Below the pieces are notes generated by a model, which saw only the letters and a list, made by a program, of their open reading frames with translations, was not told the origin of the DNA and ran no database searches. DNA of 63,630 nucleotides, the filler included, from Octopus bimaculoides (lineage: Eukaryota): NCBI RefSeq assembly GCF_001194135.2. It is 6 parts of 5 records of this genome, joined end to end, with 100 filler letters (N's around TTAATTAATTAA, not from the genome) between each part and the next. Parts side by side here need not be neighbours in the genome. Positions count along the whole stretch, not along the records: positions 1 to 23,076 come from NC_068983.1; positions 23,177 to 25,051 come from NW_026336463.1; positions 25,152 to 27,492 come from NC_068995.1; positions 27,593 to 40,396 come from NC_068983.1; positions 40,497 to 45,592 come from NC_069008.1; positions 45,693 to 63,630 come from NC_068993.1. One strand, written 5' to 3'. The translations under genes and the position numbers were made by a program. Shown here in pieces: positions 48-57,851 of the stretch (position 1 is its first letter; each line of letters starts with the position of its first letter).

Positions 48-127
48 TCTGCGGTACACGTGTTTCAAGCTTTATAGTTGTTACATCAGTGTATAATTGA
101 CAGTATAAAGCTATCTTCAGCCGCAAA
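48..127 (-). ncRNA. Type I hammerhead ribozyme motif (Penelope-like-element type)
   Basis: Minus strand reads TTTGCGG-CTGAAGA-T-AGCTTTATA-(27 nt)-TATAAAGCT-T-GAAA-CACGTG-T-A-CCGCAGA. Stem I is 7 bp (one G.U). Core CUGAAGA and GAAA are intact. Stem II is a U.U mismatch plus 9 perfect bp. Stem III is the palindrome ACACGTGT. The GUA triplet predicts cleavage between 55 and 54. Confidence 0.8.
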
Positions 128-559
128 TGTATTCTCTCCCACGAATTATATCACATAGAAGTTAAAGGAGGAAACATATATATCTTTACAAACACACACA
201 CACACATACACAACATCTATTCATCTATCTTTCTCTGTATCTATATTTACAACCACATACATATATTCATAGATACACACTCATACACATATGCACACTA
301 AGCCTAATATTTTACGAAATAACAACAAACAGGCACAAGGTTTTATATTTCGAGAGAATAGTCAAATCAGTCGACACAAGGATCTAAAAGGTATGTGTTT
401 CCTGACCCCTATATGAATGAAATACATTAAATCTTGTATTCATATTCTACTTTCAATCATTCAGAAACCTCGTATCGAAAGATGTCGATAACACTTTGAC
501 TACTTGATTGATTTTGCAAGGGCATAAGATATATAAAAGGTGTGTAACTTAGTCAGAAC

Positions 560-1270
560 TAACTGCCCCATGGTATCATTGTTTAACGCATGAAGTTTCT
601 CTTGCCAATACTTACCAAATAGATGCATGAACGCATATACATACATACATTCGACCAGCACAAAAAATTTCATATTAACAGCGGTAGAGAACGCCTCTAC
701 CTAAGACGGAATCTAGGAGGCAGAGGCTTAACATCAATCCAGACTGCCTTCGAATGTCATATACCCCTTCGGCAACATCTTTTTACCACCAAGTGTCGAA
801 GAGCATCCCTAGATCAAGTTGGCATACACGAGATAGATAATATCATGAGATTTTGAAAGAAGCTACTCGAACAAAATTCTTGATAACCTTGAATACATGC
901 TTAATAACGTCGCATGACACAACTGCAACATATCAGATGAAAGAATGAGCGGATAACATCAGAAGACCAAGTATAGATATGTTAGCAGAAAGCTCCGGGA
1001 TGATAGTAACGTTGATAATCAAAGCAATCTATCAAGGACCTGGTTACTAGCTCTCACTTTGAAGGGTATGGGTTCACAATCCAGGAACAGGAAATCTCAA
1101 CCAAATACTGATTCACAAGAGGGACAGAAACGCAGAAAAAAACACCAAAATGTGATAACCGTTGCAATCTTTGTAAAGTTAACACCGATGATATCACCCA
1201 TAAGCAGCTGTTCAAATATGTCATCACAGAATTAGCAACCTATACAAAAGCATAAACTTGAGTACTAAAC
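560..1270 (+). mobile_element. Degenerate R4/Dong-like (RLE-type) non-LTR retrotransposon, post-RT and CCHC region
   Basis: Translations FHINSGRERLYLRRNLGGRGLTSIQTAFEC, IQEQEISTKY and KCDNRCNLCKVNTDDITH match motifs typical of R4-clade ORFs. Stops and frameshifts are present. Confidence 0.7.
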
Positions 1271-1450
1271 ATTTACAGAGTACGGCAGTATCGGCGAAAG
1301 TTTCGGAGTGCAACTTCAAATCATTTGAGCGTTAGTAAGTGCTTCCTATATTGGGAGTCTTGGGATTTCATCTCTTTACTGTATGTATGTATTATGCATA
1401 TATGCATGTATGTAGGCATGTATGCTTGTATGTATATGTATACACATAAT

Positions 1451-1817
1451 CTTTTATCTTTTATTTGCTTCAGCCATTAGACAGCAGTCATGCTGGGACA
1501 CCGACTTGAGGGATTTTAGTCGGGCAAATTGTCCCCAGGACTAATTATTTTAGAGTTAGTACTTATTTTATCGTGCTCTTTTGCAGAAACACTAAGTTAT
1601 TTGAACGTAAACACACCAACAGCAGTTAGTAAGCGGTGGGGAAGGGACAAAAACAGACACAAAGACAAACACACACACGCACACACACATACACACATAT
1701 GTACTTCTTTCAGTTTCCGTCATACAAAGCCACCTACAAGGTACCATGCAGTGAGACTGAGTCCAGAAACGTGTGGATGGGAAGCAAGCTTCTTACAACA
1801 CAGCCACTCCTGCACCT
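1451..1817 (-). mobile_element. tRNA-derived SINE family A (internal CA/TA microsatellite), diverged full-length copy
   Basis: Homologous along its length to the copies at 21802-22224, 41718-42106 and 48361-48831. Confidence 0.85.
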
Positions 1818-2074
1818 TCGAAAAACATGGAACTCTTCACGAATTTGCGTGTCATCCTTGTACATATGCTGCTTCAGCCATGCAACTACACACGTGCTTT
1901 CCTTGAACTATTTTGTCCTTCTCTCTGGACCTTTCGTCTTCCCTCATTTTGACGAAATATTATGCCCGAAACGTCACACACCCTCTTTTCCTCCATCCGA
2001 AAGTGAGCGATAACCTAATACATTCACTGTGTACCTCGTATTGATTTTTGTTGACTGTTTATTTTTCAATTTAC

Positions 2075-2095
2075 ACACACACACACACACACACA

Positions 2096-2166
<71 letters not shown>

Positions 2167-2193
2167 GTATATATGTATGTATGTATATATGTA

Positions 2194-2282
<89 letters not shown>
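2075..2282. repeat. Compound microsatellite (CA)n-(TATC)n-(TATG)n-(TG)n
   Basis: Read directly from the sequence. Confidence 0.95.
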
Positions 2283-4595: not shown

Positions 4596-6830
4596 TTTCA
4601 GAAACAAAGTTTACTGATGATGGCCAGTTAGAAGAGAGTATGGTTACACCTTATTTTACAAGGGAGGATCAAATTGCGTCGAGAAACTAATGTTGGTTTC
4701 GCTGTTAAAACGCATTTAGTGCAGCATTTGACTCTTGGTTTATCTTGTGAGTTTTGTCGGTGTGATTGTTGTTTGTAGTTGCCAGCCGATGTGACGTGAA
4801 AATGATTGAGTTGCTGAATGAAAATGTATTTTGAGGGCCACGTGAAGAAATAAGGGACAATAACTACGAATAGTTAACAGATTTCATCTGTGTTGGTCTT
4901 TTACAATTACTAACAGCGATAATTACATACTGGGGGTAACATACTGCCAAGAGTTTACAACAAGCTTACTGATTTAGCAATCATTGGCTGGCCTATCACA
5001 CATGGAAACTAATTGTGCTACATTCGTGACGAAGGAAGATTTTGTCTACTATCAGCTAGGTGTATGAATTGGCTGAATGTGGCAAGAATGGAGAAACAAC
5101 GTAGAGCAGCCTCAACATTCTGTAATTACCGCAAAAACCGCTTTTTTATGGAGCACAAAGAGAAAATTCTAGAAGATTGAATCATACGAATGCTTAATGC
5201 TGATTGTTTGCTTAATAAACCGACCGCATAAAACTACTGTGGTTTCATCGTGATATCTGATCGGCTACCTAGCAGTTCAGTTTCGAATTACCGCTACACT
5301 CTGAATGATGCTTCAGTTACAACTTTACCCAAAGCAATTAATGAAAAAGACATTCTGAAAAGTGTTGATAAGAAAAACGAACCTATATTTCTGGGAGACA
5401 TAAATTCCCGTTTTGTATGTGAATCTGAACTTTGAAGTAGCAAGGGAAGTCAGGCAATGGGGAAACTCAACGTAAATGGGGATGGGGTTCTCCTATTACA
5501 GCTATGTCAGGAATTAGACTTAATTATAACCAATACTTGGTTCAACCAAAAGGATATTTATAAGGCTTCTTGGAAGCATCCACGTTCAGGACTTCAGAAC
5601 ATTCTCGATTATATAACAGTCTGTAGAAAAGATCTGTTAGAAGGAAAATCCTATCTGGTACATGCAGTCCATAAAAAGCTGCGCTGTGGCAGCACGAAAG
5701 CACGTAAATGGATTCATGATTCAAAATGAAACTGCCCTTAAAAGCTTAGGCAATAACACAAAACAGTACAAGTGGTCGATAGTGATTCATTTGTAAATTT
5801 TACTGCTTTCACTACGTTGGTATTCATTGATGGAAGACGAAAGACTTTTGACTGACTGCTCTGTTGTTCTATACCGGGCCGTGATAACCTGGAGAAAGAT
5901 CTTGAAAGCGTGAAAGGCAAAGGTCTAGGGAGAGTTGTGGATGACAGAAAACCCACTAAATTCAGACATTTTCAGACAAATGATATTCAAAATCACTCTA
6001 CCACCAGTTGCGTGTAGTCAATAGCCTACCATCATCCATCTTTTCACTTCTAAGTGCGAGGAATGGTGATGAGCAGCAACGCAAGCAAGGCGAAATCTAT
6101 GTCAGGTGGTGGCAGCGTTTTAGGGATAGTCTTGAACTGTGAGGTTGCAGTAAGTCCTGTTATCACGGATACTTGTGATTCACAGGCTTGATTCTCCACC
6201 AACTAATGATAAAATAATGGTTGCTGTAAAATGGATGGATATCGGGAAGACACTTGGGAATGTTGGTGTTGTTACTGATGAAATACTGGTACGTTCATCT
6301 ATAATATGTCACACAGTGTGCACGAAATGTAAATTCCCACAAGAGCAGAGAAATGCCATTCTTGTTTCTTTGTAGAAAGAATTCACAGACATATGTAATA
6401 ACTACGTGTAACCAGTTAGTGACAAAATATTTTCAAGGATTCTTCTCAATCGTATACTAGATCCTGTTGTGCCAGAATTCTTCACACACACACACACATA
6501 CATGCAAGCATATATATGTATGTGCACGAAGGTGTACGCACACATACCCATACACACACATATGTCTGTATTCGTATATTTTCAGAGGGCAGCTCGACAA
6601 AGTAAATACCACAGAAGATGACGTTAGACATGGATAGAAGACTCAGAGGATGACAATTGACACTAAGTGCTGACAAAAGAAGCAGCAGATGTTTTCGTTG
6701 GTGATGGTTGAAGTAGTGAAGATGATGAAAACAGTATCCATTGTCCAATATACCCATATTCCCTTGTATACTCTGATCACCCGAGGAGCGGATGTCCAGC
6801 AATAAGACGAGCTCAGAGAACAATATCCGG
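4596..6830 (+). mobile_element. Fragmented RTE-clade LINE relic (APE endonuclease and RT N-terminus)
   Basis: Peptides IFLGDINSR, GKLNVNGDGVLLLQLCQELDLIITNTWFNQKDIYKASWKHPRSGLQNILDYI, LDSPPTNDKIMVAVKWMDIGKTLG and KIFSRILLNRIL match RTE APE/RT motifs. The relic is interrupted by insertions, stops and a microsatellite. Confidence 0.8.
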
Positions 6831-9361: not shown

Positions 9362-9367
<6 letters not shown>

Positions 9368-9530
9368 GGCGGGCTTCTTTCAGTTTCCGTCTACCAAATC
9401 CACTCACAAGGCTTTGGTCGGCCCGAGGCTATAGTAGAAGACACTTGCCCAAGGCGCCACGCAGTGGGACTGAACCCGGAACCATGTGGTTGATAAGCAA
9501 GCTACTTACCACACAGCCACTCCTGCGCCT
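9362..9530 (-). mobile_element. SINE family A, 5' half with tRNA-like head
   Basis: Minus-strand head AGGCGCAGGAGTGGCTGTGTGGTAAG...GGGTTCAGTCCC carries A-box and B-box-like motifs. The copy abuts a (TA)n tract. Confidence 0.9.
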
Positions 9531-10498
9531 ATATTTCTATTTGTTATTACTTGTTACTTGTATTAAAAATAATAAATATCTCAATTATTATGTATACTTT
9601 ACAAAATAATTAGAAATTTAAAAATAGGTTATAAAAATGATAGTAGTACATAATTAGTTAGTACAATCAATAGAATAATACACTTATATACTACAGTAAA
9701 ATCTATCTTGAACAACAAACTCAGTAAAATTTGTTTGAAATTTAGCCTATAGTCTTCATATTTTTAGTCTCGAGCCAGTGCTTATTTTTTCCATAATGAA
9801 TTTGCCTACCATATACACTAATCTACTTTAGCTATATTGGTACTTCTGGCTCTCATTTTTTAAGCATTCTAGTGTGTCAATATTTTAACAAAATGATGGT
9901 ACCTTATTTAATTATAATGTTACTTTGTAAATTAAAATCAAATAATTTTAATATTCAAATTTTATCCTTAGCTTCAATACCTTGAGTAAAATTTTCTTGT
10001 TCTGTACTTTACCAGATGTAATAAGAAGTCCTGAACTTTTGGAAGTGTAATAACTTGTCCTGTAGTTTCCCAGGTTTACAATGTTAAGAATATTATTTCT
10101 CTTGCTCGCATTTTTCCATTTAATCCATGTTTTTTCCAGGCTATGCTATTATGTTGGTAAATAATATGTCAAATGTATAGAACTATAGTATCACCTTCAA
10201 ATTTGACAAACTAAAACTCATAACTTTTTTCTTTTAAAACTTCATTGCATGAGATTGATACCATGAAATTCCACGAATTGAGCACTTTCATTTAAGTTTA
10301 ATTTATATATAGTTTGTTTTTAAAATAAAAAAAAGTTAATTATACTTAACGCCAATTTTTTGCCTTATTTTATTTTTTCATGATATTTTACCTCACAACT
10401 TTTTGGTATACATTTTTGTTGCATGGGAATAAAACTATGAAATTCTTCATGCTTTCTTCTATCATTGAAACTAAGATAAATATATTTTGCGTTTAAAA

Positions 10499-10654
10499 TA
10501 TACGACGGGATTCTTTCAGTTTCCGTCTATCAAATTTTTGGTCGGACCGAGGCTATAGTAGAAGACACTTGCCCAAGGTGCCACGCAGTGGGACTGAACC
10601 AAGAACCATGTGGTTGGTAAGCAAGTTACTTACCACACAGTCACTGCTATGCCT
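10499..10654 (-). mobile_element. SINE family A, 5' half
   Basis: Near-identical to 9362-9530 apart from a short internal deletion. Confidence 0.88.
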
Positions 10655-11836
10655 ATGTATGTATATATATATAATATTACAAAATATATAGTTTTAGGGA
10701 AAATAACCAAGTTTCAAGAACTCATCGATGAAAATCCACTATCACATATAGAAGAATTAATAATTAAAAGCACAAATATATAATATTACATTTATATATN
10801 NNNNNNNNNNNNNNNNNNNNNNNNNNNNNNNNNNNNNNNNNNNNNNNNNNNNNNNNNNNNNNNNNNNNNNNNNNNNNNNNNNNNNNNNNNNNNNNNNNNN
10901 NNNNNNNNNNNNNNNNNNNNNNNNNNNNNNNNNNNNNNNNNNNNNNNNNNNNNNNNNNNNNNNNNNNTATATAACTGACTGCATAAATGATACAGTAGTC
11001 ATTCTGAAAATTACTATTAGTCCAAGCAATCCAACATTACAAGAACACACTGAATAACCAACATGTAAATTATAATATATTGCGAATAAATTCCAACTGT
11101 AGACTACATGAAGATATAGAAAGCATTCTAAAGCAAATCACGAAATTCATTTCATGAAACGATAAAAGGAAGCTAATAATATAGTCCAAAAGTACTAAAA
11201 TTAAACACTTTCTCCTGAACCACACATGCCAATCGGTCATAAACTTTTGAGTGATGTGTAATATCGATTTTAAATGCAAACGTAATAAAATTCTTAACTG
11301 TATCTGTGATATTGGTCATACAAGTACAGCACTCGCCTAGCGGATAACTATGCATTTAAAAAAAAGGAGATATTACAATGCTTCAGCACACAACACAAAG
11401 CACATCCACAGCAGAAAACATTAATAATAATGTGTCCACACTCAGCAGAATTACACATTAAATATAAACGATTAATTTTGGAAGCAAAACTGGAAGAGCA
11501 GCACTGTATTCAAGTAAATGCCATAACAAACAATACACAGACGCAATCAAGAATAAACCACGTAGTGATGATGTAACTGTCAAGATTCAAATTCTGGTGG
11601 TAATGTTTACACTAATTGCATCAATGTCAGTAAGAGGTGGTGACAAAGTCAAGCTTCACTTTATCCTGCTGATGAGACTGTGAAGTTCTGGAAAATTTGA
11701 TGGTAAATTTAGCAATTTCAAACAAACTACAAGCATCTCAGGAATATATGAAATTTAGTACAGTTATAACATGTTAAAAAAAGCCTATTCCTAGTATATA
11801 TGTGTTATACTATCGCTCTCTCTCTCTCTCTCTCTG

Positions 11837-11907: not shown

Positions 11908-12020
11908 GTTAGCAATTTTTCAACTGAGTGGCAAAAATATATACGTCCCTAAAGCGACTGAATAGCCCTCAGTCGCTTTAGTGATATATGTTTTTGCCTA
12001 TCGATTGAAAAATTGCTAAC
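11908..12020. repeat. 113-bp imperfect palindrome (MITE-like hairpin)
   Basis: Paired arms GTTAGCAATTTTTCAA/TTGAAAAATTGCTAAC, GGCAAAAA/TTTTTGCC and CTAAAGCGACTGA/TCAGTCGCTTTAG, with a 7-nt loop. Confidence 0.85.
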
Positions 12021-12243: not shown

Positions 12244-13065
12244 TCAGGGGTACTGAAAACTGATATCGTATTTTGTGTGTGTCGGCACTCCGTCGCTTAC
12301 GACGTTGAGGGTTCCAGTTGATCCGTTCAACGGAACAGCCTGCTCGTGAAATTAACGTGCAAGTGGCTGAGCACTCCACAGACACGTGTACCCTTAACGT
12401 AGTTCTCGGGGATATTCAGCGTGACACAGAGTGTGACAAGGCTGATCCTTTGAATTACAGGCACAACAGAAACAGGAAGTATGTGTGAGAGAAAGTTGTG
12501 GTGAAAGAGTACAGCAAGGTTCACCACCATCCCCTGCCGGAGCCTCGTGGAGCCTCGTGGAGCTTTAAGTGTTTTCGCTCAATAAACACGCACAACGCCC
12601 GGTCTGGGAATCGAAACCGCGATCCTATAACCGCGATCCTATGACCGCGAGTCTGCTGCCCTAACCACTAGGCCATTGCGCCTCCACCGTATTTTGTGTA
12701 ATGAGTTCAAATCAGCATAAAACATATCATAAATATATTTATTCATTGAAAATCGCCGTCGTTAGCAATAATATTTTCGTACTTTGAAATCAGTTTGATT
12801 CCTCAGACAAAAATGAAATCAGATTCTTTAGAAGAGAAAATATTCAGTCAAGTAGACTGAATGAGTGAAAATCTGATAGGTCTGGCAAGTAGTGAGTGTT
12901 AGGTAGAACTTCCCAGTTTAATGAATACGTCCTTTTTTGTGTGATCTTCATTGAATGTGGCCTGGCATTATAATGTCGCAAGATGACATTCTTTCTGTTG
13001 TGCCCTCTTCTCTTCTCTATACACTTTCCCCAATTTGCTTGAAATAATCGTGCACAATGGATCAA
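12244..13065 (-). mobile_element. Mariner (DD34D-type) transposase relic, C-terminal part and probable terminus
   Basis: RKNVILRHYNARPHSMKITQKRTYSLNWEVLPNTHYLPDLSDFHSF resembles the mariner HHDNARPH...WEVLPHPPYSPDL motif. A TIR-like TA-TCAGGGGTACTGAAAA lies at about 12242. Confidence 0.8.
12279..12687 (-). mobile_element. SINE family C, full length with 12-bp TSD, nested in the mariner relic
   Basis: Flanked by the direct repeat CGTATTTTGTGT (12267-12278 and 12688-12699). tRNA-like head lies on the minus strand. Homologous to 27593-27957. Confidence 0.9.
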
Positions 13066-13229
13066 GGTTAATTAATCGCCCGGGGAAATCTTTGAAATTT
13101 TGACGCATGTCATCTTGAGGTATGATGTCAGACAATTTGCTTGAAAATATATTTCTTTTCAATAAAGTTTAATATTTTCATTTAAAGGTATATGTCAGTG
13201 ACGCATGTGCGTATCACGACATACACATA

Positions 13230-13828: not shown

Positions 13829-14057
13829 CTTTCTATATATGCCAAGGCATAGATGCATACATCCATACACACACAAATATAAATATACATATATAGATAG
13901 ATAGATATAGTCTACATTTCCATTAAGATCAGCAAAAATAATACTCCAACAACCAGTGGGAGATAAATATTAGTTAATGGATACAGTATACAATTATGGG
14001 ATCCTAACAGTTTCAGGAATTGGAAATGTATTCTAGGCAAAGTTGAGTGATACGCCG

Positions 14058-14258
14058 TGTGTCTCCAAGCAATCCCTACGCTCTGAGCGCATGGTCTATA
14101 AAATTTAGAAATCAGGACGCTAGAACAAGAGAAATCACGAGAAAAAGAACGAGAAAGGAAAGCGAGAAGAAAGTGGATACTTTTCTCTTGTTCTAGCGTT
14201 CTGAAGTGTAAACTGTATAAATCATGTGCTCAGAGCCTACAGTCTGAATGGAGACACA
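14058..14258. repeat. Degenerate nested inverted repeat (fold-back/MITE-like)
   Basis: Three paired blocks: 10/10 (14058-14067 vs 14249-14258), 12/13 (14081-14093 vs 14223-14235) and 22/23 (14112-14134 vs 14182-14204). Confidence 0.75.
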
Positions 14259-15119
14259 ATTAAAACTTACCTAGACTATATCTCCAATGCATGAAACTAC
14301 TAGTAGCTCGTAACTGTATACCGTGTACTTACATTAAATAATATACACATATACACTAAGATACTCATACACGTTTTATGTCTATATAAATGTATATGTA
14401 TACATACACATACATGTAAACATACATATATGCATACATTTAAAAACAACGAAAATAGTATCTGAATGTCTGAAGATAAATGTTTAGGAAGATCTATTTT
14501 ACTCATGTTGTTTCATGTTAAGTTAGTTACACAACAATACCAAAGATGACAATAGCAATAAATGTCTCATTCCTTAATTTGTTTTTCTTCAAATATTTAT
14601 TCATTGTTATGAGTTTTCGTTTTCATTCTGACATAATACGTACTAACAATGGTAAAATGTGTTGCTACCTTGTTAAGCCAGCTGATGACATGTAGCACTG
14701 TGATAATAGACATTTGCATGGAGCCAACATTTCTCATTGTTCATTAGAAAATGAAATATATTCCTACTTTTGTGTCGAACGTATGATAAGCGTCATAGAC
14801 TTAACAGAAATATGCAATTATAAGACAAAAATTCCAAATACATTATAATTATGGTTGGATAGATTAAAATGTACAATACTGACAGGAGAAATCATAACAC
14901 AAATATAGTCAGAATATTCCTCAATATAGTAATCAAGGATATNNNNNNNNNNNNNNNNNNNNNNNNNNNNNNNNNNNNNNNNNNNNNNNNNNNNNNNNNN
15001 NNNNNNNNNNNNNNNNNNNNNNNNNNNNNNNNNNNNNNNNNNNNNNNNNNNNNNNNNNNNNNNNNNNNNNNNNNNNNNNNNNNNNNNNNNNNNNNNNNNN
15101 NNNNNNNNNNNNNNNNNNN

Positions 15120-18467: not shown

Positions 18468-18721
18468 CGCAAGCGTGCCCGAGTGGTAAGAAACTTGCTT
18501 CTCAACCACATGGTTCCGGGTTCAGTCCCACTGCGTGTCACCTTGGGCAAGCGTCTTTTACTATAGCCACGAGCTGACCAAATACTTATGCGTGGATTTG
18601 GTAGACGAAAACTGTAAGAAAGAGGCCTGTCATATATACAGATGTGTGTGTGTGTGTTTGCTCCCCACCACCATCGCTTGACAACCGATGTTGATGTGCT
18701 TACGTCTCTGTAACTTAGCTT
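18468..18721 (+). mobile_element. SINE family A, 3'-truncated
   Basis: Head, microsatellite and start of the 3' half are present. The copy ends where the Gypsy gag relic begins. Confidence 0.85.
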
Positions 18722-18799
18722 TGGTTCTCTGCAATCTCATGCAAGGTGGTGAACCTGGCACTTACAGCACTGGCCTTTACATGCGTTACGGAGGCTCTT

Positions 18800-19290
18800 C
18801 TCTCCTCGTCATTTGTCGATCGCTTCCTCACGCTGTAGGCTTCCACTGTTGCCAGCACCACATTATCCCGCCCAGCATTTTACATCGACTCACGCGCTTG
18901 AGAGCGATGAATTCGCTCATAGAGATTTTGTCGTTGCCTGGCAACTGTTGCAGCCGCACCGATATCTCGTCGGGGAAATTATTCACGAAATCTAGCCACA
19001 CTGCCTTATCCAGGCTTCCGCCTGTAAATCCAGAGAATAAGACCGACCTCCAAATTTCTGCCCATATACATGTCCACTTGCACTCCATTCACTTTGCGTG
19101 TAGCCCTTCTGTAAACGTTTCCTTTAGGCGCCTTTCGAACCTCTCCACATCCAGATGGGCCGCTTCAACCATTTCGAGGTACAACGCCAACGCATTTTCC
19201 TACTAATACATTGACATGAAACCTGCCACATCTTCAATGCCTTAAAGCTTGGCCATCACCTTGATCTTCCGAATTCGGAAAAGGGGTAAA
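18800..19290 (-). mobile_element. Ty3/Gypsy gag relic
   Basis: Frameshifted translation RKIKVMAKL*GIEDVAGF..ENALALYLEM..QVDMY..SGFTGGSLDKAVWLDFVNNFPDEISVRLQQLP resembles gag proteins of invertebrate Gypsy elements (recognised from memory). Confidence 0.65.
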
Positions 19291-19700
19291 AAGTACTCAA
19301 TGGCCGAAATAGCTTGTCGTTTTGGGAATAAACGTAGCTCACCTACTTCGTGAGTTCTATCTTAACGTCTATCTATTCAAGAAGGGATATATCCGTAAGT
19401 ATCCAACTTGCCTTAACCTCTGTCGAGAATCAAACGGAAAATTGCCTGAGTTCATACGACCACCACATCCGGCCCGAGCTACAGATTCGAAGCAAAAGAC
19501 ACTCTTTACGGTCTTGTTCCCAGCTTGAAAAATGGTTATACAAATAAATGTTTCGGCCAGGAAACACTGGTTACCTGTATTTCACATACCAAAATACATG
19601 CTTGCTTAACGTTATCTTTACAGAAATTTTAGCCAGCACAGATGTTTTTCCTACAACATTTCGTATTGAGACGTCAGATGTAAACAAACAAAAAATGGGC

Positions 19701-19755
19701 AATGAGCGTATATGCCATATTTCGTGGGGTTTTGCCCCTTCATCAGTACCCATCT
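19701..19755 (-). ncRNA. Degenerate hammerhead motif (Penelope-like terminus)
   Basis: AGATGGGTA-CTGATGA-AGGGGCAAAACCCCAC-GAAA-TATGGCATA-T-A-CGCTCATT. The core is intact; stem I relies on wobble pairs and stem II is misregistered. Confidence 0.45.
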
Positions 19756-19879
19756 AACCCACTCTTGCCTCCGAACACGTTGCTTATATAGCCACCGCAT
19801 ACAGCAGTGTTAAGTTATTGGCTATACCAATTTACATATCAAACGCATTCTTGGGGCTGTTATGTAAATATTAATGACT

Positions 19880-20063
19880 TGTAGGCACGTGGTATTCTCT
19901 CTCTCAACGACAACAGCTTTTTCTCCTCATTTATTCTCTCTTAAATATACGTTGCTGCAGGGGTTATCTCACCTTTTGATTTTTCTCTTTCTTCCCGCCC
20001 TTTACAAAGATATTGTTACGGACAGACAGACGGAGATCAGTAATATATGATGTATTTTCTACA
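19880..20063 (-). mobile_element. Candidate LTR upstream of the Gypsy gag relic
   Basis: TGTAG...CTACA termini and AATAAA on the minus strand, about 600 bp 5' of gag. No clear PBS or second LTR; the inner boundary could instead be 19863. Confidence 0.4.
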
Positions 20064-21801
20064 GGGTCACTTAACTTGCAAGAAAAATCAGCGAGATCTA
20101 TCTCGAATTGAATACTATCATTTTAGTATCACCTTAAAAAATAAACAATTAAATAAATAATTAAGAACGGGATGACCACAAATAGAATACTTTGATCATA
20201 AGTTCTATTTTAAAACCAAACCTGATTGACCCCAATGAAAATATCACGAATTTGAATTCAGATTTGGATTTTGTCATCATCTCACCCGATGCTGCAAACC
20301 CATCAATATTAATTTATTTAGTAATTATAAATAATTGTGGTTAAGGTGTGTTAAATAAACTTGATTGCAATCTATATTTAGGTACGTATGTATCATTTAC
20401 ATATGAATGCAAACACGCATGCATCTGTATATGCATTTGTGTGTTTGTGTGTATGTGTATGTGTACAAACATACATACACACATGCATACATACTTACAT
20501 ATATATATAAACTTGATTGCATTTTATATATATATATATAAATTTGATTGCATTTTATATTTAGGTATGAATGTATATATGTATTATGTATTTATGCATG
20601 CAAGGACGTATGTATGCATATATTTATAAATGTGACTTGCTACATTTGCGTGTGTGAACGTGCGTGCATTTATTCGTAGGTGTGTGCATGGATTCTAAAT
20701 TTACGACTGAAATAATATGAAAGGGAAAGATGAAATGAAGTGCAATTGTTAGATTAAAGTTCATTGAAGAATGAAGAAAATGGAAGTCTCTTTGACATTT
20801 CAGGCTTGATTTTCATCTATATGTTAAGTAGACAGATGAAAGAAATTTGAAGTAAGGAATAAAATACTGGTGCAACGAAGAAATGCATACAAACACACGC
20901 ATGCGTGCACACGCAAAAATACACACACACACACAGAGTAGAAATTAATTAGAAGTAATTGTGCTATCGTTTCTTCCTTAATGTATATACAGATATAAAA
21001 TGTCTTCAAGTTTTCCTAAGGAAATAAAATGCAATTCTGCTTTTAATTGTTTTTCACGTCACTGTCTTTGTTTGAAAGAGAATGTTCACTGTCTTTTATA
21101 GACCATTGATTGTCAGTTGGTAAGTCATCAACATCATAGAGCAAGTGAAATCTTTAGCTGAGCTAAAATTGTAAGTTTACGAATTGTGTTTTTCAAGAAT
21201 TTCGCATCGGTTTCAGTGAAATATGTTTATGCTTGTTTGCGTCTGTATATTATAATGTGTGGGTTTACGATCGTTTGAGTACATCTGAACGCATGTAAAT
21301 ATTGACCAGGACATATAAAATATTTACACGTAGAGATATATAAGTTAATATATGCATCAATACACACCATACACTCGCATGCACACATGCACAACCATAA
21401 TACACACCATGCAAATACGTACGCGCAAGCGCACGCTATCACACACGAACACACGAACACACACACACACAAACACACATGCACACACGCTCAAGAACAT
21501 AGAAAATACACTTACAGTTATAAACAAGTAGTAAAAGAGGTAAAAGAGAAAGAAAAATGAGATAGGAACAATCGCAAAGAAATCTCTTTTCCTCGAACCT
21601 TTGTGAAGGGGAAAAATAAATAGAGAAAAAACAGCATGGCTACAGTCAGAATGATTGAAAGAAGTAAAGGAATTGAAGAATAGAAATACAGAAAATACAA
21701 GAGAAATACTTGAGAGTAACGCTTTCATCCTACGCCATGGGGACTTATCGAGAAGAAATCTTTTTTATTTTGGTCACATTGTTTTACTTTGAGCAGAATT
21801 A

Positions 21802-22000: not shown

Positions 22001-22060
<60 letters not shown>

Positions 22061-22224
22061 CGACGGGCTTCTTTCAGTTTCCGTCTACCAAATCCACTCA
22101 CAAGGCTTTGGTCGGCCCGAGGCTATAGTAGAAGACACTTGCCCAAGGTGCCACGCAGTGGGACTGAACCCAGAACCATGTGGTTCGTAAGCAAGCTACT
22201 TACCACACAGCAACTCCTACGCCT
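21802..22224 (-). mobile_element. SINE family A, full length
   Basis: Complete head, internal (TA)n/(CA)n tract and 3' half. Confidence 0.92.
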
Positions 22225-22725
22225 ATTATTTAGTTTTGGAGAAAAAGTTTTATGAAATGTCTCCCCACTTCTAAACGATATATTGAAACTTTCATTGTAC
22301 ATCCTCCGGAAAATTCTACGATTTTTTGTCTTATCTGCATATAAATAAACTATATTTCCATTAACTTTGACTTTTCTCATTAATAAACATACTACTCACA
22401 ACACGACCAAGAACTTTTAGTTTTGCATACATATATATGATGCTGTATGCTTGAATTTGTTGTCTTTTGTTTCGCAATCTCGGCTATTTGATAAGGATCC
22501 CAGTCGCATATTGGGTGTTATTTTGTGTGGCCTCAGCTCGATCTTGCTGATGAGTGAAACGAGAAGACAGAAACATGACGAGCTCCAACGGAGGGAATGT
22601 CACTGTAATTCAAAGGTATAACATTTTCACGTTATATCCTTTGTGAGCATTCCACAGACACTCTCAAAATGTCGAGTTATTACCACCTTTTAATACAGTA
22701 CATGCACTCGCACACATACACATGC

Positions 22726-22956
22726 GGCGGCGAACTGGCAGAAACGTTAGCACGCCGGGCGAAATGCTTAGCGGTATTTCGTCTGCCGCTACGTTCTGAG
22801 TTCAAATTCCGCCGAGGTCGACTTTGCCTTTCATCCTTTCGGGGTCGATCAAATAAGTACCAGTTACGCACTGGGGTCGGTATAATCGACTTAATCCGTT
22901 TGTCTGTCCTTGTTTGTCCCCTCTGTGTGTAGCCCCTTGTGGGTAGTAAAGAAATA
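22726..22956 (+). mobile_element. tRNA-derived SINE family B, full length
   Basis: GGCGGCGAACTGGCAGAAACG (A-box-like), GAGTTCAAATTCC (B box), then GTCGACTTTGCCTTTCATCCTTTCGGGGTCGAT. The latter resembles the Meta-SINE central domain as I recall it (unverified). Confidence 0.92.
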
Positions 22957-23020
22957 ACACATACAAATACAGTTAAAATTTATTTCTCTGCAAATTATTC
23001 CCTTCAAAGAAAAAAGAAAG

Positions 23021-23076: not shown

Positions 23077-25151
23077 NNNNNNNNNNNNNNNNNNNNNNNN
23101 NNNNNNNNNNNNNNNNNNNNTTAATTAATTAANNNNNNNNNNNNNNNNNNNNNNNNNNNNNNNNNNNNNNNNNNNNAAAAATATCAATGTGTAGCTAGTA
23201 GATAAAGATTAAAGTTCTTGGCAAATTACATCATCAATTGAGGCTATTTTCAATCCAAAATACTTTTTGAAAGCAAGTATGAATAATTTGCATGTTATGC
23301 TTAAGAAGTTACTTTTACCTTTGTATTAACGTTCTTTTAGTCAGACGCAAAAAATTACGAGTGCTATAACTGATGTATAATATTCTAACCAATCTATCTT
23401 TAATGCATATTAACCCACACTCCTCATTTAAGGACAGTTGTATTNNNNNNNNNNNNNNNNNNNNNNNNNNNNNNNNNNNNNNNNNNNNNNNNNNNNNNNN
23501 NNNNNNNNNNNNNNNNNNNNNNNNNNNNNNNNNNNNNNNNNNNNNNNNNNNNNNNNNNNNNNNNNNNNNNNNNNNNNNNNNNNNNNNNNNNNNNNNNNNN
23601 NNNNNNNNNNNNNNNNNNNNNNNNNNNNNNNNNNNNNNNNNNNNNNNNNNNNNNNNNNNNNNNNNNNNNNNNNNNNNNNNNNNNNNNNNNNNNNNNNNNN
23701 NNNNNNNNNNNNNNNNNNNNNNNNNNNNNNNNNNNNNNNNNNNNNNNNNNNNNNNNNNNNNNNNNNNNNNNNNNNNNNNNNNNNNNNNNNNNNNNNNNNN
23801 NNNNNNNNNNNNNNNNNNNNNNNNNNNNNNNNNNNNNNNNNNNNNNNNNNNNNNNNNNNNNNNNNNNNNNNNNNNNNNNNNNNNNNNNNNNNNNNNNNNN
23901 NNNNNNNNNNNNNNNNNNNNNNNNNNNNNNNNNNNNNNNNNNNNNNNNNNNNNNNNNNNNNNNNNNNNNNNNNNNNNNNNNNNNNNNNNNNNNNNNNNNN
24001 NNNNNNNNNNNNNNNNNNNNNNNNNNNNNNNNNNNNNNNNNNNNNNNNNNNNNNNNNNNNNNNNNNNNNNNNNNNNNNNNNNNNNNNNNNNNNNNNNNNN
24101 NNNNNNNNNNNNNNNNNNNNNNNNNNNNNNNNNNNNNNNNNNNNNNNNNNTTAAAGGTCTATATTACCAGTCGTTTTATAACATGTCATTTCAAATTAAC
24201 AGCTGTTCTGGTATGCAATACTTTCACGTGCTCCAGATCATGAATTATTAACAATGCAAATTAAAATGTTCAGGGAAGTTCTTCAGTTTCATAACTTCCT
24301 GCACAATACAACTATAATGTGTTCTTATAAAGTATATCCTTTTCAAAGAAATGAAATAGTTCAATTGGAAGTGATATACTAATGATTCAAACCCGTTGTT
24401 GAAGTAATTTTGTATATTAAGGTAGCAAACCTCAACCTAATTTATCATCAACTTAATGCCATAGAATGCACATTAATTTTACAACTGATTGGTAACACTC
24501 TTACAAACTAAGGTGAGGTGGTTGTGACTTAGACTGCAGAGTAGATGTTAACTTGGTTTTTCTAAGAGTTTCAAATACCAGCACTATCAGGTACTGTAAG
24601 GTTTACGTAAAAAATAGTATATAATTTTAATAATATTAAGTGATAATAGTTTAGTCGTTAGAGGCCATGAAATGGCAGTCTATATGTTGATGTTTTTATC
24701 TTTATCGTCAACAGTTTCATACTATCTAGCGAATACATTATATGATTTAGTTCATTTAGATGTAAAATGATACCTTCAAGTTGTGTTGGTTGTTACATGA
24801 GCTTGAGTAAAGGTATTAAACGTGCTTTTCCAGAGGTCACCTAAAATGTTAAATTTATCGAAGATCTTGTTAATAGAAAATCATACTGAAGTTCCAAAGC
24901 CAGGATTTTGCATATTTTCGTATAAATATATTTTAATGTAATATAAGAATCATTTGTATTTTCTTTTATCATTTAGTCCCACCTATCATCGATCCAGTTT
25001 TCTTAAAACCAGGTAAGTTTTCACCATATGAATCTCTGGTGTTTTCCTTTTNNNNNNNNNNNNNNNNNNNNNNNNNNNNNNNNNNNNNNNNNNNNTTAAT
25101 TAATTAANNNNNNNNNNNNNNNNNNNNNNNNNNNNNNNNNNNNNNNNNNNN

Positions 25152-25243
<92 letters not shown>

Positions 25244-26362
25244 TGGCTGTATTTCACTTGAGTTTTAATTATAATTTAAATGAATGAATAATTAATTTGC
25301 TACGTAATTGCTTGACTTTGTGAAAGTACTTTCATCCCAGCCTTTGACCTTATCGATGGCGTTGTGTGCCCCCTACATGTTCTCCGCGCTATCTCATCCA
25401 TGTGTGCCTGTAAATGTATATACATCCATGCACAGACATACATATACATGCACATACGTAGTACATAAGAACATACACACATACATATACACACACACGC
25501 ATTCATATACGTACACACATACACTAGATATTATGCAAAACTAGAAATAGCCCTTCAAGACAATTCATTTCGTTGCCAGAGAAATAGGAAAGATAAGGAG
25601 AGGGAATTATGGAAAATCTTAAAAGAATATTACAATATAAGGTTAACGTCCGCGTTTCTTTTTCTTAAGAGCCATTGTTGCATCTGGCGGCATCAGAATT
25701 TTTAGTCCTTCCGTTTATTGTGGTTGTTGATGCTTTGAGACATGAGAACACACAGACATATGGATTCAATTATATACACACGCGCACGAGCATGTATGTG
25801 TATATATATATACACAGTTTCAATTATAGTTTATATATANNNNNNNNNNNNNNNNNNNNNNNNNNNNNNNNNNNNNNNNNNNNNNNNNNNNNNNNNNNNN
25901 NNNNNNNNNNNNNNNNNNNNNNNNNNNNNNNNNNNNNNNNNNNNNNNNNNNNNNNNNNNNNNNNNNNNNNNNATATATATATAACACGTTCGAGCGTAAA
26001 CACACATTAATTTATACACAAACATAGAAACACGTACAATTATACATACAAACACGTTTGTGTGGATGTATACGCTTATTCAGAAATGCTTTTACACAAC
26101 CGAATTCTCTCGCGCTCTCGCGTACACACACACGCACACACACACATTCTGTCAAAGAAGATGATGGCTGTTTGGGGGAAAAAAAATTCAATCAATTATT
26201 AAAATCCGGAACGATCTCTGCCGATAGTCGAATATTTTCCGTCTCGTATTCTCCTCAATGTCCTTCAAACGGTGAGAGTTTCATGAACCAAATACGTTAG
26301 TTACATTGACTTGTTCTATATTGTTTCAAATTTTAGCAGAATACCAACAATTTTAGGAAGAA

Positions 26363-26530
26363 GTCAATTACTTCAACCTCGGTACTGGACTGGTACTTTA
26401 TTTAATCGCCCCGTAAAGACGAAAGGTAAAGTTGACCTCGGCAAGATATGAACTCAGGACGTAAAGAGCCGGAAGAAATCTCGCTAAGCGCTTTGTTCGG
26501 CGCGCTAGCCATTCTGGCTGCTCGCCGCCC
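26363..26530 (-). mobile_element. SINE family B, diverged
   Basis: The reverse complement aligns by eye to 22726-22880. Confidence 0.75.
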
Positions 26531-52978: not shown

Positions 52979-54471
52979 TTAGGATGGTGGAGTGTCAGAG
53001 AAGAGGCCTCACTCAAATTTCGTCTAGGAGCCAATGGTCATGGCTAATTCACCAAGTAGGAGGATAGCCTGTCCAACTTGCATTTGGCCAGTGTGAGCGG
53101 TGCTCCGACAATAAATGTAGGTAAGCGGTGCACCCTGCATGAAGTGCAATATATTGCATATATACATATTACTTCTGAATGGAATGAAATATATCTATCT
53201 ATCTGTCGAGATGGGAGGATCAATATGCATTATCTACTATTAGTTAAATTTTACTCTTAATTCACCTGAAGAAAATGGGCTTTTTTGTACATGATGTAAT
53301 TATTTTGTTCATCAATGAAGAACACGTCTGAAACAGCTGCTATGTAATGCGGTGGAATCATAATTGAGTGCCTATTAAAAGTATCTGGAGTCTTCATTTA
53401 GAATTTTGTTGATGTCTGTGTGACTAGGAATATAGTATAGAAATGCAACTCACATTTATATGAAGGAATCTATGGTAAAAATGGTTTCGCTTTACAGCAT
53501 TTCACTTTAAGTTGCATTTTCCAAGAACCTATCAATGACGTTAAATGAGAACTGACTGTAAATATACTGTAAGGTGGACAATTTACGGCTAGTTTGCTGG
53601 GATTGTTTCCCTTTGCCAAATCATTTTGAAAGTACGAAGTATCTTAAAGCTGAAGTTCATGAATTTCTAACTACATTATTTTAAAATAGCATTAGTTAAA
53701 AGTAGTGAAGCAGGGAAGAAAAGGTCGCTCGTATCATGGATGTTAGTCGATCGAAAAGGGGTGAATTAGCAGGGTTCCATGGAAGGTTACGGTCCTACTA
53801 CTGCAATGTTTCGTTATTGGAGAAATCTGGGAATTGCTAAAAGAGCTAAAAAGCACACAAAAAAAGATGGTTGGTGTTCAGACAAGAGAGAAAGATAACT
53901 CTCTCTGTCTGTCTGTCTCTCAATATATATATATAGATAGATATATAACACGCTTCTGCGCATGTCCACTCCACACACGCGCACATCGGCAACATTCGTC
54001 AATTTCTTGAAAATGGGGTCATAACCCCGAAATATTGAATACAAGATATTTGTTTTCTTGTCATTTACTCCGCATTGTTTTGGCCTTACGATCTTTTATA
54101 CATTATATATATATATAGATAGATATATAACACGCTTCTGCGCATGTCCACTCCACACACGCNNNNNNNNNNNNNNNNNNNNNNNNNNNNNNNNNNNNNN
54201 NNNNNNNNNNNNNNNNNNNNNNNNNNNNNNNNNNNNNNNNNNNNNNNNNNNNNNNNNNNNNNNNNNNNNNNNNNNNNNNNNNNNNNNNNNNNNNNNNNNN
54301 NNNNNNNNNNNNNNNNNNNNNNNNNNNNNNNNNNNNNNNNNNNNNNNNNNNNNNNNNNNNNNNNNNNNNNNNNNNNNNNNNNNNNNNNNNNNNNNNNNNN
54401 NNNNNNNNNNNNNNNNNNNNNNNNNNNNNNNNNNNNNNNNNNNNNNNNNNNNNNNNNNNNNNNNNNNNNNN

Positions 54472-54640
54472 CCTTAGTAATCACCATTAAACTCGTATAA
54501 CTCTTTACGAATGCTCTGCACTGTACTCAGATTGACGCCCGAACACTCTGAAATGTTCGTATTGGAGCCTCCAGCATGAATGCCAAAGAGTACAGCACAT
54601 CATTTCTAAATTTCTGGCAGACTGAATTGCGTCATGGTGC
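54472..54640 (-). mobile_element. Tc1/mariner-superfamily transposase N-terminal relic
   Basis: MTQFSLPEI*K*CAVLFGIHAGGSNTNISECSGVNLSTVQSIRKELYEFNGDY gives a helix-turn-helix-like pattern (IS..GVNL.TVQ.IRK), with stops. Confidence 0.6.
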
Positions 54641-55945: not shown

Positions 55946-55970
55946 TATATATATATATATATGTGTGTGT

Positions 55971-56002
<32 letters not shown>

Positions 56003-56212
56003 TTATGTATGTGTTTGAGTTCCATCACCGCTTGACAGCCAGTGTGTGTTTGTTTACGTCCCCGTAATTTAGCAGTTCTGCAAAAGAGACTGATAGAATA
56101 AGTACCAGAACTTTAAAATATATAAAAAAAAGTATTGGGGTCAATTTGTTCCCTTTGAAGGGTTTAAGTCGAACATGGCTCAGGCCAATCGCTGAAACAT
56201 AAAATATAAAAG
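55946..56212 (+). mobile_element. SINE family A, 3' half, diverged
   Basis: CACCGCTTGACAGCCAGTG...GATAGAATAAGTACCAG. Confidence 0.75.
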
Positions 56213-56799
56213 AATTCTATTATTTTCTCCGAACATGAATCCTGTTTCTAGTGAACGTAAGAGCTTGAAAAATGCACATATACTTGAGTTTTCTTAAAAG
56301 TAAAAAATCCGATTCTTACCATGTAAAGCTCTATCCTAAAAGAGCTGAACCTTCGGAAATTATTGAATAAAATACAATCCCGCATAAAAATATACACACA
56401 TCACCGTCTTCAGCATTTATATATTTCAATATGAATATTTTATATCATCACATGTCATTTCGATAGACCATGTCTATATTTTATTATTTTGTTAGCATGA
56501 AAAATTGAATTTACTAATTTTTTTTCTTTTATATTAAGAAACTTGATAGAATCTTGTAGGTAGAAATACTCGTATATATATTCACAGTTGCGAAATTTTT
56601 GTGGCCATCATTACTATAAATGCCTCTTTCAGAATTTTATTGCGAAATTTCATAGGCAGTTTGGTCGAATGGTAAAAAAATTTCCGTCTAGCTTGCATGA
56701 AATTTTATGTAATTGTCATTTCAGATTTCGTATCAACCCATAAATAGTGTGGGTAGACGGAAAAAGGGTATGGAAAAGGGATGGATTGTGCCTATAATT

Positions 56800-56945
56800 C
56801 AAAAGGTACAACCTCATCACATGTGACGCTGATTCTGCTTTAGAATTAGGTCAGGGCACACATGTCTGCAGTGTACTCAGCCACTACTCGTTAATTCAAG
56901 GGCAGATTATTTAGTTGATCAATCAATTGAATCCTTGCCGTCAAA
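56800..56945 (+). mobile_element. Diverged SINE family C-like fragment
   Basis: GGGCACACATGTCTGCAGTGTACTCAGCCACTACTCGTTAATT resembles the family C body. Confidence 0.55.
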
Positions 56946-57440
56946 CAACAGAGGTCCACCTCTATCACCAACACTACCAGCCATTGTAAAGTTCTACACG
57001 TGAATGAGGCTGCTTTGGAATTTAACGACAATTGTGCAGCTGATTATTTTTTTTTGTGTTTGACTCTGTGTCACAGTAATGTCACTGAAAATGCCCAAGT
57101 ACGAATGCATAATCTTATGCTCTGACGGGGTCCAAAAACAAGACAAAACAAAGCAAAACAAAAAACGAAAGAATAAAACATGGTTCATGCCCAGCGAAAG
57201 GTAACGGAATACACATTTATTTATCTATTCATTTTAATACATATCTCTTATGTTTCCATGCGTCATTCGTTAGAATATGATTTTATTAGATATTTATGTA
57301 CAATACACACGCACGCACATACACACACACACGATCAAAACCTTTTATTTTTACGTTGCTCCAATCCATTCAGTTATAAATGAGTATACCTTGCGACGGA
57401 CTGGCGTTTCGTTCAGGCATAATATAACAATCTCGGCCAC

Positions 57441-57479
<39 letters not shown>

Positions 57480-57482
<3 letters not shown>

Positions 57483-57640
57483 AGTTTTTATGTTTAGTTA
57501 TAATAAAAACAATAAACTTATTATTCTTTAACAAGAATAACATTGACACTGACTTTAACGTTTCGGTTAGCTTAGCCATCATCACAGATGATGGTTTATC
57601 TACCCGAAACTTCGAAGTCACAGTCAATGCTATTCTTGTG

Positions 57641-57691
<51 letters not shown>

Positions 57692-57849
57692 AGTTTTTAT
57701 GTTTAGTTATAATAAAAACAATAAACTTATTATTCTTTAACAAGAATAACATTGACACTGACTTTAACGTTTCGGTTAGCTTAGCCATCATCACAGATGA
57801 TGGTTTATCTACCCGAAACTTCGAAGTCACAGTCAATGCTATTCTTGTG

Positions 57850-57851
<2 letters not shown>
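57480..57851. repeat. Exact tandem duplication (163-bp unique unit, 209-bp period) between (TA)n tracts; each unit holds a 107-bp palindrome
   Basis: Units 57480-57642 and 57689-57851 are identical. Palindromes lie at 57532-57638 and 57741-57847, with loop ACA. Confidence 0.93.

What the first reader, a model, noticed from the sequence alone, without database searches (positions are those of the whole stretch)
48..57851. System-level: a population of hammerhead-bearing mini-elements, including palindromic double-ribozyme units, with no autonomous partner in the window
Seen: four motifs with intact cores and plausible helices (48-127, 33231-33302, 33342-33413, 40097-40185) and at least seven degenerate ones (19701-19755, 35958-35994, 43794-43830, and both arms of each palindrome at 57532 and 57741). 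Two unrelated palindromes share one design: two hammerhead cores back to back, each facing outward. No Penelope RT or GIY-YIG ORF is recognisable nearby. Known: minimal type I hammerheads mark Penelope-like element pseudo-LTRs and metazoan retrozymes, and Penelope insertions often carry inverted pLTRs. Inference: this genome may host non-autonomous ribozyme hairpin elements, transcribable from either strand and released by self-cleavage. I am not aware of such a class being described in cephalopods, but I cannot search the literature here.
Basis: partly seen in the sequence, partly recalled or inferred. Interest (0 to 1): 0.85.

Follow-up and report, generated by a model that had tools for sequence, protein, structure and literature searches.

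The report
Head-to-head Penelope retrotransposon ends with hammerheads
The hammerhead-ribozyme motifs are real, but they are likely the broken-off ends of Penelope-type jumping genes, and the palindromes are likely two such ends inserted back to back, a known by-product rather than a new self-releasing RNA element.

Summary
The motifs are real: five score far above shuffled sequence (5 vs 0.005 per shuffle), and a further degenerate one lies at 33073-33160. The seven 'degenerate' motifs are only four insertions; the 57532 and 57741 palindromes are one 164-bp unit duplicated letter for letter.

The reading as self-releasing double-ribozyme units is not supported. Each strand carries one sense ribozyme, so it cannot be cut at both ends. 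In the whole hairpin that ribozyme is predicted to be fully buried (-193 vs -106 kcal/mol), and both 57532 arms lack stem I.

Sequencing data show a very high-copy family whose 14 visible inverted junctions all differ and lie at about single-copy depth. It has two alternative 3' ends, and its RNA reads show no end pile-up.

Sitting in (TA)n, head-to-head 5'-truncated arms and a one-sided tail are the published signature of Penelope-like elements. Craig 2021 lists an octopus Hydra-clade element with a similar hammerhead and a Repbase element with hammerheads on both strands. No ORF partner was proven, and the host was not confirmed. Verdict: new families of a known kind.

The parts
10..127 (-). 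3' end of a likely Penelope-like element: type I hammerhead 48-127 (intact core, U-U at base of stem II, GUA site at 55) plus U-rich 3' stretch running into (TA)n at 1-9
   Evidence: (score 37, best)
19640..19860 (-). Fragment of a repeat carrying a hammerhead (core 19746-19740, site about 19709); another copy of the same element is translated in database protein P0006
   Evidence: (score 22)
32600..33072 (+). Moderately repeated body upstream of the 33073 hammerhead; depth rises toward the 3' end; possibly a decayed endonuclease end (by eye only, searches blank)
   Evidence: tables 2 and 8; blank or inconclusive
33073..33191 (+).
   Evidence: tables 3 and 7
33192..33205 (.). (TA)n target shared by the 33073 element and the left arm of the palindrome
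33211..33320 (-). Left arm of palindrome 1: tail-less 5'-truncated copy with hammerhead 33231-33302 (site 33242; stem I weakened by two private changes)
33324..33433 (+). Right arm of palindrome 1 with hammerhead 33342-33413 (core 33352, GAAACTCGGAG, GUU site 33402)
33434..33502 (+). One-sided tail (about 64 bp) of the right arm, followed by (TA)n; other copies end either at about 33433-33440 or about 33488-33502
   Evidence: table 7
35897..36085 (-). Copy of a second family, minimal hammerhead (core 35989-35983 with 2 mismatches, unpaired A, 4-bp stem II, no loop III), without the tail
40060..40185 (-). Hammerhead 40097-40185 (intact core, U-U at base of long stem II, GUA site 40102) plus 3' stretch running into TA/CA repeats
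43705..43880 (-). Second copy of the 35897 family (core 43825-43819 with 2 mismatches) with a tail of about 32 bp (43705-43736) running into (TA)n
57480..57643 (.). Palindrome 2: one-sided tail 57480-57526 (about 48 bp) plus arms 57527-57643 joined at the CUGAUGA cores; no 5' strand of stem I in either arm; (TA)n on both sides
57689..57852 (.). Letter-identical duplicate of 57480-57643 (209-bp period): recent local duplication or assembly artefact, not an independent insertion
13967..14344 (.). Possible third, older head-to-head pair (72% arms, asymmetric centre, GAAAC in both arms, no recognisable CUGANGA); not established
   Evidence: not scored

Best explanation
The window holds real type I hammerhead motifs, most lying 30-100 bases upstream of a (TA)n run; they are likely the 3' ends of Penelope-like retrotransposons (the 33211 family likely Hydra clade), and each palindrome is likely one insertion of two 5'-truncated copies joined head to head. 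Inferred mechanism: the RT/GIY-YIG protein of an autonomous element elsewhere in the genome nicks (TA)n on both strands. It starts reverse transcription at one of two sites downstream of the ribozyme (giving the tail-less and tailed ends) and copies the uncleaved RNA back through the ribozyme. It stops early at variable points, and the two short cDNAs are joined at their 5' ends, or one primes the other by fold-back. The arms then decay neutrally. The palindrome is a by-product that is predicted not to fold its ribozyme and would not release itself.
For: Shown: 5 motifs above shuffles. (TA)4 lies 20-110 nt downstream of 8 of 10 sites (6 of 8 insertions) against a background of 0.08 (p about 6e-6). 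One-sided tails of about 64, 48 and 32 bp. Two alternative 3' ends in other copies (table 7). 14 distinct left-arm-to-right-arm joints in run X1, each in 1-2 contigs at depth 32-80 against single-copy depth 39; 0 of 14 keep two whole ribozymes, 10 keep one, 4 none. Loose ends show the family continues upstream of this junction (45 contigs X1, 47 X14, 48 reads X22). Depth falls toward the 5' end. All 9 arm differences are transitions, and two break left-arm stem I against the majority letter. Predicted: whole hairpin -193.1 vs -105.6 kcal/mol with the ribozyme forced; P(stem I pair) about 1e-57 vs 0.48 for the arm alone. Published: inverted 5'-truncated copy and one-sided 30-40 bp tail (PMC8557442); head-to-head palindromic junctions (PMC3846280); dual opposite-strand min-HHRs 100-700 bp apart (PMC4209133); both-strand nicking and two internal RT starts (PMC11167929); Hydra-clade table with (TA)n targets, U-U stem II bases, GUU sites, GAAACTCGGAG in Hydra-2_aMil, and Penelope-13_HM listed with a hammerhead on both strands.
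Against: No RT or GIY-YIG remnant was proven next to any motif, so membership rests on nucleotide architecture. No Rfam hammerhead hit. Only 15 of 136 joints and 12 of 46 between-letter rows were shown. Joint sides in table 5 are 21-28 letters, which the tool flags as weak, and two joints (33209, 33211) have almost no left arm. Copies sharing this locus's junction exactly would not appear as joints. Loose-end consensus upstream of 33324 agrees only 0.52-0.66, which also fits a short element whose 5' end is near there. The 5' fall in depth could partly reflect divergence below the 80% cut-off. Two tails are longer than the published 30-40 bp. The 35897 and 43737 copies stop at the same 5' point (the second 10 bp from a gap). 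Only one of the two palindromes was laid on reads.
Confidence: 0.8

Rival explanations
1. The masters of these families are short non-autonomous PLE derivatives (SINE-like, about 200 nt, one ribozyme) mobilised in trans; the palindromes are still head-to-head by-products of the same PLE machinery.
For: Very high depth confined to about 130 bp. Weak upstream consensus (0.52-0.66). Two copies of the 35897 family share a 5' end. No ORF found. Non-autonomous PLE derivatives are described (10.64898/2026.07.22.740005; MRC1 passage).
Against: Similar upstream letters recur in three runs' loose ends at 33324. The 33073 element has a repeated body at least 470 bp long with a 3'-rising depth profile. 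Junctions fall at many points inside the ribozyme.
Confidence: 0.25
2. One reading: the palindrome is itself the mobile unit, transcribed from either strand and released by self-cleavage.
For: Two unrelated short palindromes of the same design in 63 kb; near-symmetric arms in both; palindrome 1 keeps both cores intact; family-like RNA reads lie on both strands.
Against: One sense ribozyme per strand. Ribozyme fold predicted absent in the hairpin. 57532 arms lack stem I. 14 of 14 visible junctions differ. No RNA end pile-up (table 6; weak, about 6% of two ordinary RNA-seq runs). Only 6 of 749 and 2 of 764 laid reads are >=99% alike, and 90-92% run on into unlike sequence.
Confidence: 0.07
3. 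Classical non-LTR retrozymes (head-to-tail arrays giving circular RNAs).
For: Type I hammerheads with short palindromic stem III; a U-U stem II base is also reported in axolotl HHR_Amex2 (PMC7229834).
Against: No head-to-tail array with a ribozyme per unit in the window. The only tandem (209 bp) is an exact duplicate with no complete ribozyme.
Confidence: 0.05
4. Chance motifs inside MITE-like hairpins or assembly artefacts.
For: No Rfam hit; gappy assembly; the 57532/57741 duplicate may be an artefact; another hairpin (11908-12020) has no core.
Against: 5 vs 0.005 per shuffle. Palindrome arms differ by 8% and 22%, which mis-assembly does not give. The family is seen in two organisms' contigs.
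Confidence: 0.02

Closest known systems
Hydra-clade Penelope-like elements (Craig et al. 2021, PMC8557442), incl. Hydra-1_Obim, Hydra-2_Amil, Penelope-13_HM
   Same: Sense hammerhead near the 3' end; (TA)n target; CTGAAGA-G/T cores; U-U at the base of stem II; stem III of the ACTC-N-GAGT type (Hydra-2_aMil has the same GAAACTCGGAG as 33391-33401); GUU/GUA sites. Penelope-13_HM has a 5'-truncated inverted copy with a hammerhead listed on each strand.
   Different: None of the window families matched a listed consensus beyond that 11-mer (6 motifs searched, 2 more gave no relevant hit). Arms here are 58-110 bp, not 966. No ORF seen, so clade assignment is by ribozyme style only.
Canonical inverted-pLTR structure of EN+ PLEs (Arkhipova 2013 PMC3846280; Craig 2021 Fig. 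2; Frangieh 2024 PMC11167929)
   Same: Head-to-head inverted copies with a palindrome at the junction; optional tail on one end; AT-rich target; two RT start sites explain the tail.
   Different: Here both arms are cut so short that only the ribozyme and tail remain; tails of about 48 and 64 bp exceed the usual 30-40; no TSD can be read in (TA)n.
[quoted passage not shown]
   Same: The 35958/43794 family fits the min-HHR (unpaired base after A9, G10.1-C11.1, no loop III); mostly solo motifs from truncated PLEs; dual motifs on opposite strands 100-700 bp apart in Schistosoma.
   Different: Cores here are 60 bp or 0 bp apart; the 48, 33073 and 40097 motifs have long AT-rich stem II.
Non-LTR retrozymes (PMC7229834; 10.64898/2026.07.22.740005)
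   Same: Protein-free PLE-derived sequences with type I hammerheads in animals.
   Different: Retrozymes are head-to-tail tandems giving circular RNA; these are solo or head-to-head.

Membership tests
Type I hammerhead ribozyme | CUGANGA and GAAA cores, NUH site, stems I-III | tested here: met
   5 motifs; not met by the 6 degenerate ones as they stand
Type I hammerhead ribozyme | Match to an Rfam hammerhead model | tested here: not met
   (150 of 184 rows seen)
Type I hammerhead ribozyme | Self-cleavage | not testable with these tools
   needs in vitro assay; no RNA end pile-up is weak
EN+ Penelope-like element | RT plus GIY-YIG ORF in the full element | tested here: inconclusive
   none found in the window; no genome held; truncated copies would lack it
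EN+ Penelope-like element | Sense hammerhead close to the 3' end | tested here: met
   site 30-100 nt before (TA)n in 8 of 10 sites
EN+ Penelope-like element | Inverted 5'-truncated copy joined head to head | tested here: met
   both palindromes; 14 further junctions
EN+ Penelope-like element | Optional tail at one end only | tested here: met
   about 64, 48 and 32 bp; two 3' ends in other copies; two are longer than the published 30-40 bp
EN+ Penelope-like element | Variable 5' truncation among copies | tested here: met
   33211 family only: joints and depth profile
EN+ Penelope-like element | Target-site duplication | not testable with these tools
   insertions lie in (TA)n
Hydra clade | (TA)n targeting and Hydra-style hammerhead | tested here: met
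   comparison with the published table is by eye, and (TA)n targeting is not unique to Hydra
Hydra clade | RWK and DKT motifs, CxCX5C linker, no CCHH | not testable with these tools
   no ORF available
Non-LTR retrozyme | Head-to-tail tandem with a complete ribozyme in each unit | tested here: not met
   window only
Non-LTR retrozyme | Abundant circular RNA | not testable with these tools
   only ordinary RNA-seq laid
Proposed unit-length double-ribozyme hairpin element | Recurrent fixed junction and length among copies | tested here: not met
   14 of 14 visible junctions differ; copies identical to this junction would be invisible
Proposed unit-length double-ribozyme hairpin element | Two cleavable sites on one transcript | tested here: not met
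   one sense motif per strand; fold predicted absent

The most novel reading that the evidence does not exclude
A subfamily of these palindromes has become a unit-length, non-autonomous hairpin element. A read-through transcript from either strand ends in a valid PLE 3' end, so the PLE protein can copy the whole hairpin to new (TA)n sites: a bidirectional, MITE-like retroelement whose ribozyme is switched off by its own antisense arm. Copies with this locus's exact junction would be invisible in the joint table, so this is not excluded.
Probability: 0.08. Interest if true: 0.65.

Novelty: new member of a known kind. Interest (0 to 1): 0.25.

Why it matters
As found, it adds unnamed hammerhead-bearing PLE families to an animal genome where they are very abundant: about 8 insertions in 56 kb of called sequence, and roughly 10^4 copies of one family by summed depth, a rough figure. 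The practical value is as material for an open question: how PLE head-to-head inversions form (two-strand target priming versus fold-back self-priming). Thousands of very short inverted copies, each with its own junction, could map where reverse transcription stops relative to the ribozyme; the 57532 pair stops exactly at the core. They also form long dsRNA hairpins that could be RNA-editing substrates; no excess of A>G or T>C places over DNA was seen.

Tried and rejected
No whole genome is held, so no genome-wide count was possible.

Rfam gave only microsatellite- and hairpin-driven miRNA hits and a weak U6 fragment.

Search for an ORF partner:
- Pfam on 300 of 396 frames and on 24 read-through frames: no RT or GIY-YIG.
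- Word searches with P0002, P0006 residues 1-42 among longer proteins and 32451-32798: blank.
- HMMER with 19737-20099 gave 2 hits: P0005, a repetitive protein rejected as spurious, and P0006, an unnamed translation of another copy of the repeat.
- Codon test of 26 majority differences did not single out a frame.
- The protein-atlas look-alike search was not obtained, so that route is open.

DNA scans:
- An idealised compact double-core pattern in metagenomes gave 2 loci; the one read (L001) is not a true palindrome, rejected as chance.
- The family 21-mer had 0 hits in prokaryote genomes and viral contigs.

Other blanks and rejections:
- No RNA holder was listed; this is no evidence either way.
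- Earlier findings: none returned.
- A SINE motif search to confirm the host was blank.
- Hairpin 11908-12020 rejected (no core). The motif near 32360-32440 was too decayed to call.
Full report
Context. The window is AT-rich (31% GC over all positions), microsatellite-rich animal DNA with 7,249 N. No genome is held. Sequencing runs name the host only as 'organism A'. The octopus literature below bears on novelty only if that guess is right, while the structural argument does not depend on it.

1. The observation. A strict type I descriptor finds 48-127(-) and 40097-40185(-), against 0.05 per shuffle in 100 shuffles. A graded descriptor, allowing unpaired bases at the foot of stem II and written after I had seen the motifs, scores five at 22-37: those two, both arms of the 33211 palindrome and 19709-19746. 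The null is 0.005 per shuffle in 200 shuffles. The other 6 of the 11 named motifs fall below 14. 35958 and 43794 are two copies of one family (89% over 124 bp) with two core mismatches each; their alignment reads as the minimal hammerhead of Cervera and de la Pena. The 57532 arms start at the core itself and lack the 5' strand of stem I. 57480-57643 and 57689-57852 are identical over 164 bp, so that palindrome is one insertion. Rfam lists no hammerhead.

2. Anatomy. For 8 of 10 sites (6 of 8 insertions) a (TA)4 run begins 20-110 nt downstream of the cleavage site, against 0.08 for random positions. Both palindromes read (TA)n - arm - inverted arm - extra stretch - (TA)n, the extra stretch on one side only: about 64 bp at 33434-33502 and about 48 bp at 57480-57526. 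The 43737 copy has about 32 bp that the 35897 copy lacks. The nine differences between the 33211 arms are all transitions. Against the majority letters, at least five are private to the left arm and two to the right, and two of the left-arm ones break stem I pairs. This fits neutral decay from identical arms.

3. Other copies (stretch 32600-33502, 80% likeness, 4 runs). Contigs with no differences have depth 38.9 and 38.7. Summed depth reaches 898,000 and 843,000 at 33375-33436, 222,000 at 33344-33374 and 93,000 at the centre, with 129,000-281,000 on the left arm; organism B shows the same profile at about half the depth. The tool warns that this is no copy number; it suggests the order of 10^4 copies, falling toward the 5' end. 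Loose ends show two 3' ends (about 33433-33440 then TA, and about 33488-33502) and show that the family continues upstream of 33324 (45 contigs in X1, 47 in X14, 48 reads in X22; agreement 0.52-0.66).

Of the 15 of 136 joints and 12 of 46 between-letter rows shown, 14 distinct ones run from the left arm to the right arm, all in X1. I left out rows outside the palindrome, within one arm, going back, or duplicated. Each lies in 1-2 contigs at depth 32-80, and no two share both ends. Mapped to family coordinates, ignoring the letters between, 0 of 14 keep two whole ribozymes, 10 keep one and 4 none. Limits: sides are 21-28 letters where given, two joints have almost no left arm, and copies with exactly this junction or with two longer arms cannot appear as joints.

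RNA: 749 of 12.9 million and 764 of 12.0 million reads were laid, only 6 and 2 of them >=99% alike. Both directions are about equal (strandedness not known), 90-92% run on into unlike sequence, and no place has many ends. This looks like passive transcription of many copies inside longer RNAs; about 6% of each run was read, and such libraries miss small or circular RNA.

4. Mechanism. Shown: each strand of a palindrome has one sense ribozyme, in its 3' arm, so self-cleavage could cut once and not release a unit. Predicted: the whole 33205-33502 transcript folds at -193.1 kcal/mol as a hairpin against -105.6 with the ribozyme forced; the arm alone costs only 5 kcal/mol. The first stem I pair has probability about 1e-57 in the whole and 0.48 in the arm alone. 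Inferred from the literature: a PLE protein nicks both strands of AT-rich DNA and starts reverse transcription at two internal sites downstream of the ribozyme on uncleaved RNA, which yields the optional tail (PMC11167929). Early stops give short 5'-truncated copies, and two of them joined 5' to 5' give an outward-facing pair. Fold-back self-priming is the alternative proposed in PMC3846280; I cannot separate the two.

5. Partner. No RT or GIY-YIG was found in the window by Pfam or by protein searches. By eye, frames upstream of the 19746 and 33078 cores resemble decayed endonuclease ends; that resemblance is recalled and was not confirmed. P0006 shows that 19640-19860 is a repeat whose other copy spans the same core. 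Absence of a partner in 63 kb is expected: the O. vulgaris annotation lists 31 recently active PLE families with 336 insertions genome-wide (PMC13282606).

6. Comparison and novelty. Craig 2021 describes the inverted 5'-truncated copy and the one-sided 30-40 bp tail. Its supplement lists Hydra-1_Obim (O. bimaculoides, 2,507 bp, (TA)n, canonical hammerhead), Hydra-clade motifs with U-U stem II bases and GUU sites, Hydra-2_aMil with the same GAAACTCGGAG as 33391-33401, and Penelope-13_HM with a hammerhead on both strands. Cervera 2014 reports dual motifs on opposite strands 100-700 bp apart. So the design and its presence in octopus are in print; these particular families were not found in that supplement. 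A unit-length palindromic double-hammerhead class did not appear in the listings; Repbase and Dfam could not be searched.

Papers seen: PMC4209133 parts 1-2 of 4; PMC11167929 parts 1-2 of 4; 10.64898/2026.07.22.740005 parts 1-3 of 5 (supplements closed; invertebrate tables there may bear); PMC8557442 passages, section 11, supplement part 2 of 59 and searches; PMC13282606 part 1 of 3 and passages (supplement listed, not read); passages only of PMC3846280, PMC7229834, PMC8967140, PMC6431247 and PMC6765202. Lunse 2017 was seen only as a citation.

Verdict: real motifs, known design, new unnamed families; interest 0.25. The novel reading (a subfamily moving as a whole hairpin) has probability about 0.08.

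Noticed in passing
   Followed up: yes
32600-33072: Moderately repeated body with 3'-rising depth, colinear with the 33073 hammerhead in other copies; + frames near 32630-32800 resemble a decayed GIY-YIG C-terminus by eye (recalled); searches blank.
   Followed up: partly
13967-14344: 72% inverted repeat with asymmetric purine-rich centre and GAAAC in both arms; possibly an older head-to-head PLE pair.
   Followed up: partly
35673-35898 / 36554-36779: 98.7% inverted repeat of 226 bp starting at a gap edge and abutting the 35897 PLE fragment; artefact or inversion, unexplained. An 11-bp direct repeat lies at about 36079 and 36489.
   Followed up: no
11908-12020: Hairpin of about 113 bp (80%) beside (CA)n/(TA)n with no hammerhead core; MITE-like.
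   Followed up: partly
32360-32440 (-): GAAAC-containing stretch that might be a very decayed hammerhead; not scorable.
   Followed up: partly
1821-1871 (-): U6 snRNA fragment (Rfam 32.4 bits, below the gathering score of 44) beside a SINE-like repeat.
   Followed up: no
9367-9540, 10498-10664, 18468-18638, 22056-22231, 33874-34028, 41942-42119, 48366-48525; 22726-22971, 26361-26532, 41545-41713, 42554-42802, 60856-61023: Abundant dispersed repeat families of SINE size.
   Followed up: no
623-856, 5436-5729, 12844-13071, 18700-19200: Frames that look like LINE, LINE endonuclease, mariner and gypsy-gag remnants (recalled; no Pfam hit).
   Followed up: no
23077-23176, 25052-25151, 27493-27592, 40397-40496, 45593-45692: Gaps written as N44-TTAATTAATTAA-N44: an assembly linker, not biology.
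   Followed up: no
53948-53980 / 54130-54162; 57444-57885: Exact short duplications beside a gap or between microsatellites, probably assembly artefacts.
   Followed up: no
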